38,652 nucleotides of DNA from the IMG/VR virus record IMGVR_UViG_2671180727_000010; one strand, written 5' to 3'. Under the pieces are notes generated by a model that saw only the letters and a list, made by a program, of their open reading frames with translations, searched no databases and was not told where the DNA came from. This document shows, piece by piece, positions 25,590-26,400 of the stretch (position 1 is its first letter; the number at the start of each line of letters is the position of its first letter). Position numbers and translations under genes: made by a program. The DNA is from a virus (lineage: Duplodnaviria; Heunggongvirae; Uroviricota; Caudoviricetes).

Positions 25590-26400
25590 CTCTATAGGCG
25601 TTAATGCTCACTCCTTCCAGAACGTTCTATACGGCGACTATTTCTGTTGGTGAATTGGGCGTGTTGTTCTCTCTGTCGGTGTAAATGGTTTCGTTCGTTT
25701 TGCGGTGGTTCTTCTATGGGGTGCTCTCGTCGTTTTGGTGATTGTTCTTCTCCGTGTATGGAGTAATGGCAGGTGGGCGATTCCTTTCGTTGTTGTGTTT
25801 GAGTTGTTTGTCTGGAGTGTGTGAAAGGCTTTTGTAGTTATTCGTGTATTGGGTAATGGCATTTCCCGTGATTGTTATGTTTCGTGTCTTTTGGGATTGA
25901 GAGAAACCTTGCGGTTACAGGCTTCGTTGGGGGTTTCAGTGATTCTGGTGTGCTTCGCTATTTGGGGAATGGCGTATCGTGGGTATCGCGCGTATGAATG
26001 TTTTCGGATTGCCTGTGAAAGTTAGGTTGGTTGTCCGGTAGCCTGGGAAGAAGAGGTGGGTCTTTTCGGTAGCCTGCCATAAAGAGGTTGGTTGTTTTTG
26101 GTAATGGCATATGTGTTATTTAGTTGTTTTGTTATGCCTGAAAATAAGTTGTTTATATGGTTATGTAACGCAACGGGAACGATTTTGAGCGTGTGTTTTT
26201 GTTGGTAGTGTGTTGGGTCGTCTGTGGTGAAAATTGGACGCTGTGGCGCTGTCTGCTGCGTAGAATTACGGGTATAAGCAGTGATGTGTGAAAACGTCAA
26301 TTTTTTAGACCAAATCGGGTGAAAGCGTTGACGTTTCGTTGATCTGTTATTCAGTTGTTTTCTTGATTGTATAAACAACTATAACTTATTGATATTTAAG
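25590..26400. other. ~0.8 kb noncoding region with strong strand skew (G/T-rich, A-poor on the + strand) and degenerate direct repeats
   Basis: No credible ORF in any frame; recurrent T(A/G)TGG(N)GTAATGGC(A)-like motif at ~25757, ~25845, ~25960, ~26097; a ~31-bp tandem repeat CGGTAGCCTG...AGAGGT(G/T)GGT at ~26030-26095. Confidence 0.5.

What the first reader, a model, noticed from the sequence alone, without database searches (positions are those of the whole stretch)
25590..26400. ~0.8 kb noncoding region with extreme strand skew and degenerate direct repeats
The + strand is G/T-rich and strikingly A-poor, with no believable ORF on either strand. The minus-strand ORFs in the track translate to low-complexity Thr/Lys/Arg/His/Pro strings. 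A TrTGGnGTAATGGCA-like motif recurs four or more times at ~90-130 bp spacing, and there is a ~31-bp tandem repeat at ~26030-26095. Phage genomes are normally gene-dense, so a conserved noncoding block this size suggests a large structured RNA, an array of binding sites, or a remnant of repeated promoter units.
Basis: seen in the sequence. Interest (0 to 1): 0.6.

Follow-up and report, generated by a model that had tools for sequence, protein, structure and literature searches.

The report
Conserved strand-skewed noncoding region, SSU5-type phage-plasmids
A roughly 1-kb gene-free stretch found in hundreds of SSU5-type phage-plasmids of enteric bacteria is kept by selection, codes for nothing and does not fold as RNA; its most likely role, still untested, is to stop transcription crossing between two gene blocks.

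Summary
Over 25590-26400 the + strand is 68.6% G+T, against 49.5 ± 2.0% elsewhere in the window (z 9.7). The repeats are present and there is no gene.

The window is an E. coli SSU5-type phage-plasmid. The element occurs in 838 plasmid records from six or more enterobacterial genera, always between the same conserved genes and a variable accessory island. Its length is fixed at 1004-1081 nt.

It is under purifying selection. Identity between clades is 60-70%, against 37-41% at four-fold sites of the flanking genes.

It is not protein-coding and not a large structured RNA. The minus-strand transcript would be the least foldable RNA in the window.

The skewed body is bracketed by a conserved sigma70-like promoter block (26299-26271) and a minus-strand hairpin plus U-tract (25517-25490). 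It holds conserved direct repeats and one copy of a 15-bp operator-like palindrome that recurs across the genome. In a published lysogen data set its right-hand third reads 0 FPKM while both neighbouring genes are expressed.

Best reading (confidence about 0.35): a leftward, untranslatable, unstructured A/C-rich transcription unit that loads Rho and insulates the early genes.

Main rival: a DNA-level protein-assembly site such as a lytic origin. No description was found in Rfam or in the paper library.

The parts
25490..25517 (-). Hairpin plus U-tract, an intrinsic-terminator-like site at the left (downstream) end of the skewed body.
   Evidence: Found by the terminator scan. Kept in 13 distinct sequences, with G-U pairs that work only on the minus strand and one pair that switches GC to AU in 5 sequences.
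25518..26262 (-). Skewed body. As a minus-strand RNA it is about A 40%, C 30%, G 15%, U 15%.
   Evidence: Composition. Minimum free energy per 300 nt is -30 to -42 kcal/mol, against a window mean of -83 ± 13. The median C/G ratio in 78-nt windows is 2.5, against 0.88 elsewhere. No conserved structure. No coding signal.
25749..25770 (+). Repeat copy 1, TCTCCGTGTATGGAGTAATGGC.
   Evidence: The 25754-25770 part is identical in the majority base of all four clades.
25839..25860 (+). Repeat copy 2, ending in GTAATGGC.
   Evidence: The spacing to copy 1 is 90 nt here and 93 nt in the Salmonella and Klebsiella clades.
25952..25973 (+). Repeat copy 3, degenerate here (GGAATGGC).
26091..26108 (+). Repeat copy 4, TGTTTTTGGTAATGGC.
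   Evidence: Other clades carry two more copies, near positions corresponding to 25815 and 25893.
26036..26097 (+). Tandem module of two 31-bp units, CGGTAGCCTG-N5-AAGAGGTGGGT. Other clades have three units.
   Evidence: A second copy lies at 22390-22441 in another intergenic region.
26141..26155 (+). One copy of the 15-bp palindrome AAAACAA-N-TTGTTTT. It has 2 mismatches here and is perfect in the other clades.
   Evidence: There are 15 copies in 98 kb of plasmid pUTAK-6-1, against 0.48 in shuffles, typically between the -10 element and the ribosome-binding site of a gene.
26271..26299 (-). Sigma70-like promoter P(-): TTGACG, 18 nt, TATACC, with an A-tract upstream.
   Evidence: Present at the same aligned position in 10 of 10 relatives. 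The -10 element is weak because it lacks the final T.
26329..26355 (+). Divergent promoter-like site P(+): TTGAC[G/T] followed by a poor -10 element.
   Evidence: The two TTGAC boxes form the inverted repeat GAAAACGTCAA...TTGACGTTTC (26290-26338). This block is 77-88% identical between clades.
26431..26476 (-). Conserved block with an invariant 8-bp inverted repeat, GGCGGTCA...TGATCGCC. It abuts the variable accessory genes.
   Evidence: (z -4.5 on the minus strand). The published counts fall from 59 to 0 FPKM between the neighbouring gene and the ORF at 26022-26378.
25300..25432 (+). Left flank, outside the finding: 5-6 iteron-like repeats CC(G/T)TTTCCCnGAAA, mostly 22 bp apart.
   Evidence: They differ from the plasmid's own replication iterons (TATGCTGTCAGCGGT). 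A second cluster lies at 21690-21760.
25140..25168 (+). Rightward promoter-like site, TTGTGA, 16 nt, CACAAT.
   Evidence: Found in 8 of 10 relatives, as TTGAGA-16-CAGAAT in some. It bears on the rival reading in which the G/U-rich strand is transcribed.

Best explanation
The skewed 0.8 kb is the core of a family-specific noncoding control region of SSU5-type phage-plasmids. I read it as a self-contained leftward (minus-strand) transcription unit.

Anatomy of the unit:
- A conserved sigma70-like promoter block lies at 26299-26271.
- It is followed by about 770 nt of A/C-rich RNA. This RNA can hardly base-pair and has almost no start codons or ribosome-binding sites.
- The unit ends at a conserved hairpin plus U-tract at 25517-25490.

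Proposed mechanism. A naked, C-rich, G-poor, untranslated RNA of this kind is an ideal loading substrate for the termination factor Rho. The most likely function is therefore a termination buffer, acting as an insulator or attenuator. It would stop leftward transcription from running into the operator-controlled early genes on the left while the element is a quiescent plasmid. That transcription could come from the variable accessory-gene island on the right or from the unit's own promoter. The intrinsic terminator would act as a backstop.

The conserved repeats inside the unit would be the places where a phage or host factor acts to change the unit's behaviour during lytic growth. These are GCCAUUAC on the RNA (4-6 copies), the 31-nt tandem module and the operator palindrome.

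Shown here: the anatomy, the conservation, purifying selection, the absence of coding and of RNA structure, and silence of part of the region in a lysogen.

Inferred, not shown: the transcribed strand, the involvement of Rho, and any switch.
For: - Boundaries. The skew is bracketed by the promoter-like block and a terminator that works only on the minus strand.
- Neighbouring genes. All flanking genes in the window read leftward. The same holds for most of the relatives examined.
- Lack of structure. The minus-strand RNA gives the least foldable 300-nt stretches of the whole window, 3.2-4.1 sd above the mean energy.
- Rho-like composition. C/G is above 1 in 89% of 78-nt windows and at least 2 in 74%, against 32% and 2% elsewhere.
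- Selection on composition. Columns conserved across clades are more skewed than variable ones (G+T 0.757 against 0.632). This points to selection on one strand rather than mutation bias alone.
- Purifying selection. Identity between clades is 0.60-0.70 in the body and 0.77-0.88 in the promoter block. Four-fold sites of the flanking genes are 0.37-0.41 identical across the same clades (0.55 for the closest pair), and those genes overall 0.55-0.62 (0.75 for the closest pair).
- Position. The element always lies between conserved early genes and a variable island.
- Expression. In E. coli LF82, which carries the close relative Cyrano, the right neighbour CYRAN_102 reads 59 FPKM. The ORF covering 26022-26378 reads 0 FPKM in LB and stays near zero when both neighbours rise.
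Against: - No transcript has been shown on either strand. The published counts may not be strand-specific, and they show the promoter is off in lysogens.
- The -10 element of P(-) is weak.
- Rho loading needs about 80 nt, not 770.
- Composition alone does not explain the conserved motifs, or the near absence of indels between two clades (4 small indels against 216 substitutions).
- The drop in read counts happens before or at the right end of the element. The body may therefore not be what terminates the neighbour's transcript.
- Klebsiella relatives in which the right-hand gene reads away from the element still keep it.
- YC dinucleotides are not enriched beyond what the composition gives.
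Confidence: 0.35

Rival explanations
1. It is a DNA-level assembly site. The direct repeats bind a phage-plasmid protein and build a nucleoprotein complex, such as a lytic replication origin or enhancer, or an accessory partition or packaging site.
For: - There are 4-6 same-orientation motif copies. Their spacing is identical in the Salmonella and Klebsiella clades (93 and 135 nt) despite about 30% substitutions.
- Only 4 small indels separate those two clades, against 216 substitutions.
- The element's length is fixed at 1004-1081 nt in 38 loci.
- An iteron-like cluster in 22-bp phase lies next to it.
- The tandem module has a 31-bp period, about three helical turns.
- Part of the region reads 0 FPKM in the lysogen.
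- The plasmid replicon lies elsewhere with different iterons, so a second, lytic origin is still unplaced.
- The element tolerates an IS3 insertion in a plasmid that persists, which fits a phage-phase function.
Against: - A double-stranded binding array does not need one strand to be 70% G+T.
- No DnaA boxes were seen by eye. G+C is 41-50% across the body against about 45% for the surrounding sequence, so no AT-rich unwinding element stands out.
- Spacings between the motifs (52, 41, 45, 90 and 142 nt) are not in helical phase.
- No binding protein has been identified, and no initiator gene is annotated next to it.
- The cumulative skew of the plasmid shows no polarity switch here.
Confidence: 0.25
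2. It is a trans-acting, lytic-phase long noncoding RNA. The unstructured A/C-rich transcript of about 770 nt would act as a sponge or decoy for a factor that binds single-stranded RNA, such as Rho, Hfq, ribosomal protein S1 or a defence sensor.
For: - It looks like a discrete promoter-to-terminator unit.
- The RNA would be extremely unstructured.
- It carries repeated conserved short motifs.
- The sequence, not just the composition, is under selection.
- It is silent in the lysogen, as expected of a lytic function.
Against: - Hfq-type ARN and AANAANAA motifs, YC dimers and GGA motifs are not enriched beyond the composition.
- No transcript is documented.
- The -10 element is weak.
- Conserved spacing is not expected of a sponge.
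Confidence: 0.12
3. The G/U-rich strand is the one transcribed, rightward. Its G-rich RNA would form a persistent RNA-DNA hybrid (R-loop) that primes or activates lytic replication. The known parallels are the ColE1 origin, the phage T4 origins, the mitochondrial control region and immunoglobulin switch regions.
For: - The non-template strand would have a GC skew of +0.4 to +0.5 with recurrent G clusters.
- A rightward promoter-like site at 25140-25168 is present in 8 of 10 relatives and was the best-scoring conserved site in my scan.
- SSU5 and an Enterobacter relative carry a rightward gene just left of the element.
- The genome encodes a UvsW-like helicase and a RecA. In phage T4, from my own knowledge, UvsW removes origin R-loops.
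Against: - G is only 30-33%.
- The one clear terminator and the better -35 element serve the opposite strand.
- The plus-strand RNA shows no conserved structure.
- Conserved columns are more skewed than variable ones, which argues against a purely mutational skew from an exposed single strand.
- Part of the region reads 0 FPKM in lysogens.
Confidence: 0.1
4. It is a decaying remnant of former genes or duplicated intergenic units, with no function of its own.
For: - GTAATGGC resembles real stop/start gene junctions (TAATG) elsewhere in this genome.
- An operator copy and a promoter-like block are present without a gene.
- One plasmid carries an IS insertion in the element.
Against: - It is better conserved than the adjacent protein genes, and far better than their four-fold sites.
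- Its length is fixed in 38 loci.
- It is present in 838 plasmid records.
- It is not built from copies of other intergenic sequences.
Confidence: 0.05
5. It is a large structured RNA, or a frameshifted or small protein gene.
For: - Its size is similar to phage-associated large RNAs.
- A plus-strand ORF of 63-73 codons starts at repeat copy 3 in three clades.
Against: - Rfam gave no match, and there is no consensus structure or fold stability above shuffles.
- Across that ORF, mismatches by codon position are 18, 20 and 23. Codon changes are 5 synonymous against 29 non-synonymous. Amino-acid identity is about the same in all three frames (0.54, 0.49 and 0.49).
- The ORF is cut to 14 codons in the E. 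coli clade.
Confidence: 0.04

Closest known systems
Rho utilisation (rut) regions and Rho-dependent terminators or attenuators, for example lambda tR1 and long untranslated leaders
   Same: The RNA would be C-rich, G-poor, unstructured and untranslated, on the strand that neighbouring genes are transcribed from. It sits where read-through would be harmful.
   Different: It is about ten times longer than a rut site. It carries conserved sequence motifs with fixed spacing. It has its own promoter-like block and an intrinsic terminator. Dependence on Rho is untested.
Mitochondrial control region (D-loop region)
   Same: Both are about 1 kb of noncoding DNA with divergent promoters at one end, short conserved sequence blocks in variable spacers, and a strong G+T against A+C strand asymmetry.
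   Different: This is an analogy only, with no homology. There is no evidence here for replication priming. In mitochondria the G-rich RNA is the one that acts, whereas here the clearer signals point to the A/C-rich RNA.
Dispersed operator network of phage-plasmid P1 (C1 repressor sites at many operons)
   Same: A short operator-like sequence recurs about 15 times across the genome, next to promoters. One copy lies inside this element.
   Different: The site here is a 7-1-7 palindrome, whereas the P1 operators are asymmetric. The binding protein is unknown. This explains only 15 bp of the element.
Iteron arrays of plasmid and phage origins (P1 incC/incA, lambda ori, P4 ori/crr)
   Same: Direct repeats lie in one orientation. 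The left-flank cluster has the classic 22-bp phase.
   Different: The repeats inside the skewed body are 40-140 nt apart and out of helical phase. No unwinding element was identified, no DnaA boxes were seen by eye, and no initiator gene is annotated nearby. The known plasmid iterons lie elsewhere and differ in sequence.
Large phage-associated noncoding RNAs (GOLLD, ROOL) and protein-sponge RNAs (CrcZ)
   Same: The size class and the phage context are similar. Like CrcZ, it carries repeated single-stranded motifs in an A-rich RNA.
   Different: GOLLD and ROOL are highly structured, and this is not. Rfam gave no match. CrcZ-type A-rich motifs are not enriched here.

Membership tests
Rho-dependent terminator / rut region | C-rich, G-poor RNA over at least about 80 nt | tested here: met
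   On the minus strand the median C/G in 78-nt windows is 2.5. The run with C above G is continuous for 775 nt.
Rho-dependent terminator / rut region | Little secondary structure and no translation of that RNA | tested here: met
   These are the least stable folds of the window. No conserved ORF or coding signal was found.
Rho-dependent terminator / rut region | The strand is actually transcribed, and termination depends on Rho (bicyclomycin-sensitive) | not testable with these tools
   The only data are published lysogen counts of 0 FPKM over 26022-26378. There are no induction or Rho-inhibition data.
Large structured noncoding RNA (Rfam families, including GOLLD, ROOL and OLE) | Match to a covariance model | tested here: not met
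   No match at the gathering score. At E up to 10 there were only two chance-level hits.
Large structured noncoding RNA (Rfam families, including GOLLD, ROOL and OLE) | Conserved secondary structure, or fold stability above shuffles | tested here: not met
   Consensus folding energy is about 0 kcal/mol on the minus strand. On the plus strand it does not differ from shuffles across the body. Single-sequence z-scores are -1.3 and +1.5.
Protein-coding gene, intact or frameshifted | Three-base periodicity of substitutions, an excess of synonymous changes, and a conserved frame | tested here: not met
   Periodicity p is 0.52-0.995. Indels are not multiples of three. The best ORF has 5 synonymous against 29 non-synonymous codon changes.
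Iteron-type replication origin | Tandem direct repeats in helical phase | tested here: inconclusive
   This is met by the left-flank cluster at 25300-25432, with mostly 22-bp spacing. It is not met by the motifs inside the skewed body.
Iteron-type replication origin | An adjacent AT-rich unwinding element, DnaA boxes and a neighbouring initiator gene | tested here: inconclusive
   G+C is 41-50% in 200-nt windows of the body, so no AT-rich unwinding element stands out. No DnaA box was seen on reading the sequence, but no dedicated scan was run. The flanking genes have no family assignment. The RepB-family initiator and its own iterons lie about 35 kb away around the circle.
Sigma70 promoter, for P(-) | -35 and -10 hexamers at 16-18 bp spacing, conserved in relatives | tested here: inconclusive
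   TTGACG, 18 nt, TATACC is present in 10 of 10 relatives, but the -10 element lacks the final T. Activity was not tested.
Intrinsic terminator, at 25517-25490 | G+C-rich hairpin followed by a U-tract, kept in relatives | tested here: met
   Found by the scan. The hairpin is kept in all 13 sequences, with G-U pairs and one compensatory pair.

The most novel reading that the evidence does not exclude
The element encodes, or is, a new kind of single-strand device. One form would be a lytic-phase RNA of about 770 nt that is unstructured by design and carries repeated GCCAUUAC-type motifs. It would act in trans to trap or divert a host factor that reads naked RNA, such as Rho or an RNA-sensing defence. 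The other form would be its displaced G/T-rich DNA strand, serving as the landing pad for the element's own recombination and replication proteins.
Probability: 0.15. Interest if true: 0.85.

Novelty: new variant of a known kind. Interest (0 to 1): 0.6.

Why it matters
SSU5-type phage-plasmids are common in clinical and farm isolates of E. coli, Klebsiella, Salmonella, Enterobacter and Citrobacter. They carry resistance and defence genes in the variable island that starts right at this element. How these elements stay quiet as plasmids, switch to lytic growth and replicate lytically is essentially unstudied.

This noncoding region is better conserved than its neighbouring genes. It lies exactly between the accessory island and the early genes, which makes it a strong candidate for that control.

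It is also directly testable: delete it, flip it, or inhibit Rho. If the leftward-RNA reading holds, it would be an unusually long and sequence-constrained example of termination-based insulation. If the DNA-site reading holds, it would locate the lytic origin of the family.

Tried and rejected
- Rfam at the gathering score and at E up to 10: nothing usable.
- Sliding consensus folding on both strands against column shuffles: no signal in the body.
- Coding tests by periodicity, indel lengths and the best plus-strand ORF: negative.
- A chain of translationally coupled small ORFs through the TAATG motifs: rejected, because the spacings are not in a common frame (computed).
- Sigma54 promoter reading of TGGCA: rejected by eye, because no GC sits at the -12 position.
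- Hfq, Crc and CsrA sponge motifs: not enriched.
- Plasmid replication origin: rejected, because the RepB-family gene and its different iterons lie elsewhere.
- cos or pac packaging site: unlikely, because the terminase genes lie about 12 kb away.
- Body built from copies of other intergenic modules: not so, apart from the operator and the tandem module.
- The P(-) inverted repeat as a general operator: it is unique in 98 kb.
- A second copy of the right-hand block at the far side of the island: none found.
- Global skew switch at the element: none found.
- Search for more distant relatives through a flanking protein: only Kluyvera, Buttiauxella and one metagenome bin, all with the same element.
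- Literature searches on SSU5, pHCM2, phage-plasmid, noncoding, transcript and operator: no description of the element. One 2026 preprint on a phage-plasmid could not be opened.
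Full report
**What the window is.** The 1.4 kb around the finding matches 243 E. coli genomes at 60-99% identity. All matches are on plasmids and none on chromosomes. It also matches the phages Cyrano, PhiR41_1 and CMS-2020a at 92-98%, and Salmonella phage SSU5 and Klebsiella phage-plasmids at 67-74%. The annotated relatives carry tail, capsid, terminase, DNA polymerase III alpha, RecA, helicase and RepB-family replication genes. The window is therefore an SSU5-type phage-plasmid of E. coli.

- Over 25590-26400 the + strand is G 29.7%, T 38.8%, A 17.9% and C 13.6%.
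- G+T is 0.686, against 0.495 ± 0.020 for all other stretches of the same length (z 9.7). GC skew is +0.37 (z 6.0) and AT skew -0.37 (z -4.9).
- No other part of 98 kb of the near-identical plasmid pUTAK-6-1 comes close.
- The GTAATGGC-centred motif is at 25763, 25853, 25966 (degenerate) and 26101, always on the + strand. The 31-bp tandem pair is at 26036-26097.
- The gene-free gap is wider than the finding, about 24934-26497. NCBI's PGAP pipeline annotates nothing in it in most records. Where other pipelines call ORFs, the calls disagree between records.

**It is conserved and under selection.**
- A less stringent search finds the region in 838 plasmid records: Klebsiella 430, Escherichia 224, Enterobacter 90, Salmonella 49, Citrobacter 25 and Cronobacter 9. 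Of these, 810 are non-mobilisable.
- In every relative inspected it lies between the same small leftward genes and a block of genes that differs from record to record.
- I extracted the element between two conserved anchors from 38 loci. Its length is 1004-1081 nt. The sequences fall into four clades that are 60-83% identical.
- The skew is present in all of them.
- Between clades the skewed body is 0.60-0.70 identical and the promoter block 0.77-0.88.
- For comparison, two flanking protein genes are only 0.55-0.62 identical overall and 0.37-0.41 at four-fold degenerate sites across the same clades. For the closest pair those values are 0.75 and 0.55.
- The noncoding stretch is therefore better kept than its coding neighbours.
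- Conservation comes in short invariant blocks separated by variable spacers.

**It is not a gene.**
- Indels between clades are 1, 2, 3, 8, 11, 12 and 15 nt long.
- Mismatches show no three-base periodicity (p 0.52-0.995).
- A plus-strand ORF of 63-73 codons starts at the third motif copy in three clades.
  - It has mismatches of 18, 20 and 23 by codon position.
  - It has 5 synonymous against 29 non-synonymous codon changes.
  - Its amino-acid identity is about the same in all three frames.
  - It is cut to 14 codons in the E. coli clade.

**It is not a large structured RNA.**
- Rfam gives nothing.
- Consensus folding of 14 sequences in 120-column steps gives about 0 kcal/mol on the minus strand. 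On the plus strand it gives -1 to -9 kcal/mol, no better than shuffled columns.
- Local signals appear only at the terminator, the operator, the promoter inverted repeat and the right-hand block.
- The 745-nt body folds at -109 kcal/mol on the minus strand (z -1.3) and -196 kcal/mol on the plus strand (z +1.5).
- As RNA the minus strand is the least foldable sequence in the window: -30 to -42 kcal/mol per 300 nt, against -83 ± 13.

**Anatomy, read from right to left along the minus strand.**
1. A conserved block at 26431-26476 abuts the variable genes. It has an invariant 8-bp inverted repeat.
2. At 26265-26365 lies the best conserved stretch of the region. It holds two TTGAC boxes in divergent orientation.
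   - The leftward site is TTGACG, 18 nt, TATACC, preceded by an A-tract. It is present in 10 of 10 relatives.
   - The rightward site has a poor -10 element.
   - The variable position in the second box is not compensated in the first. The pair therefore looks like two -35 elements rather than an RNA hairpin.
3. The A/C-rich body follows. It contains:
   - one copy of a 15-bp palindrome at 26141-26155;
   - the tandem module at 26036-26097;
   - 4 motif copies here and 6 in SSU5.
   Three of the motif copies share a 22-nt unit, TCTCCGYRTATKRRGTAATGGC. Their spacings are 93 and 135 nt in both the Salmonella and Klebsiella clades.
4. A hairpin plus U-tract at 25517-25490 closes the body. It is kept in all clades, with G-U pairs that would be A-C mismatches on the other strand. 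One pair switches from GC to AU in five sequences.

The minus-strand run with C above G (25611-26385) fills the space between promoter and terminator almost exactly.

**Wider context found along the way.**
- The palindrome AAAACAA-N-TTGTTTT occurs 12 times in the window and 15 times in 98 kb of pUTAK-6-1, against 0.48 in shuffles. It nearly always lies between a GATAAT-like -10 element and the ribosome-binding site of a gene. It looks like the operator of a genome-wide repressor.
- The tandem module has a second copy at 22390-22441 in another intergenic region.
- Left of the terminator, at 25300-25432, are 5-6 iteron-like repeats, mostly 22 bp apart. A second cluster lies at 21690-21760. They differ from the plasmid's own replication iterons.
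- A fragment of the element (26036-26365, or only 26268-26365) lies next to insertion sequences and DUF262 or DUF4297 defence genes in Klebsiella plasmids of 190-257 kb. This shows that the accessory island moves together with its flank.

**Expression.** The only data I found are for LF82, which carries Cyrano (98% identical here). Values are log2(FPKM+5).
- The ORF covering 26022-26378 reads 2.32 in both LB replicates, which is 0 FPKM. In all but one of the other eight samples it is at most 3.63 (about 7 FPKM). The exception is one macrophage 6-h replicate at 4.27 (about 14 FPKM).
- The right neighbour reads 59 FPKM in LB and up to about 590 in other conditions.
- The left neighbour rises to about 220 FPKM in macrophages.
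- I could not establish whether the counting was strand-specific.
- Either way, leftward transcription from the accessory gene does not enter the element, and P(-) is off in the lysogen.

**Why one strand seems to matter.**
- Columns that are identical across clades are more skewed than variable columns: G+T 0.757 against 0.632, and GC skew 0.46 against 0.22.
- If the skew came only from mutation on an exposed single strand, the freer sites should be at least as skewed.
- Substitution rates corrected for composition look ordinary (computed).
- Selection therefore seems to favour G and T on the + strand, which means A and C on the minus strand. An RNA of A and C cannot pair with itself and has no AUG, GUG or UUG start codons and no ribosome-binding sites.

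**Best explanation and its limits.**
- The simplest reading is a leftward transcription unit whose product is meant to stay naked. From established knowledge of Rho, such RNA is the preferred loading substrate.
- Its position fits an insulator. Accessory genes that are expressed in the lysogen read towards the early genes, and the element stands between them with an intrinsic terminator as a backstop.
- This reading does not explain the length, the motifs or the fixed spacing. Only 4 small indels separate two clades, against 216 substitutions.
- Those features fit a protein-DNA assembly better. The main rival is therefore a DNA-level site, such as the still unplaced lytic origin, together with the neighbouring iterons.
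- I put the leftward termination buffer at about 0.35 and the DNA site at 0.25. A trans-acting naked RNA gets 0.12, a rightward G-rich transcript forming an R-loop 0.10, and a remnant or a structured RNA or gene about 0.05 or less each.

**Novelty.** I found no Rfam family and no description of this element in five literature searches. By mechanism it most resembles a Rho-loading region, but it is ten times longer, constrained in sequence and equipped with its own promoter-like block and terminator. I rate it a new variant of a known kind, with a real chance that it is something else.

Noticed in passing
window, 11 sites, including 25095-25102 and 21777-21784: The Chi sequence GCTGGTGG occurs 11 times in the window, against 0.84 expected from shuffles. 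The copy at 25095 is conserved in 8 of 10 relatives. Two copies lie next to the iteron-like clusters.
   Followed up: partly
window 13182, 13207, 19406, 22323, 22808, 23558, 24461, 24945, 26141, 27754, 27805, 36080: A 15-bp palindrome, AAAACAA-N-TTGTTTT, recurs 12 times in the window and 15 times in 98 kb of pUTAK-6-1, against 0.48 expected. It usually lies between a GATAAT-like -10 element and the ribosome-binding site of a gene. It is probably the operator of a genome-wide repressor of this phage-plasmid family.
   Followed up: partly
window 22390-22441 and 22480-22503: A second copy of the tandem module CGGTAGCCTG-N5-AAGAGGT lies in another intergenic region. It is followed by a strong hairpin that in some relatives looks like a plus-strand terminator. 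This stretch is also the second-longest minus-strand run with C above G (22280-22538).
   Followed up: partly
window 25300-25432 and 21690-21760: Two clusters of iteron-like repeats, CC(G/T)TTTCCCnGAAA, lie mostly 22 bp apart. They are unrelated to the plasmid's own replication iterons (TATGCTGTCAGCGGT). Their binding protein is unknown.
   Followed up: partly
window 27903-31194: The phage-plasmid carries a full methionyl-tRNA synthetase gene (metG) and an apbC gene, which resemble chromosomal housekeeping genes. They lie in the variable island right of the element.
   Followed up: no
L004, L005 and L006 (Klebsiella plasmids of 223-246 kb): Fragments of the element (window 26036-26365, or only 26268-26365) lie next to IS or Tn3-family elements and DUF262 or DUF4297 defence genes. 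This suggests that defence cassettes were captured from phage-plasmids together with this flank.
   Followed up: partly
L016 (Kluyvera plasmid pSCW13-2), 1663-2774: An IS3-family element is inserted inside the conserved element, and the left half is displaced. The element is therefore dispensable for plasmid maintenance.
   Followed up: no
pUTAK-6-1 positions 14835 and 70730 (loci L007 and L008): GTAATGGC also occurs at real overlapping stop/start gene junctions (TAATG followed by an alanine codon, after a ribosome-binding site). The motif in the element therefore resembles a gene junction of this genome, although no coding signal remains.
   Followed up: yes
L009 (E. coli plasmid, NZ_CP122497.1): This element is a mosaic. 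Its left part resembles the Salmonella and Enterobacter clade and its right part (about 26100-26400) the E. coli clade. Recombination has therefore occurred inside the element.
   Followed up: no
outside the window (Cyrano 40268-40822, CYRAN_43): In the published LF82 table, a 'hypothetical protein' next to the integrase and repressor genes reads about 7000 FPKM in the lysogen. That is by far the highest value on the phage-plasmid. It may be a regulatory RNA.
   Followed up: no
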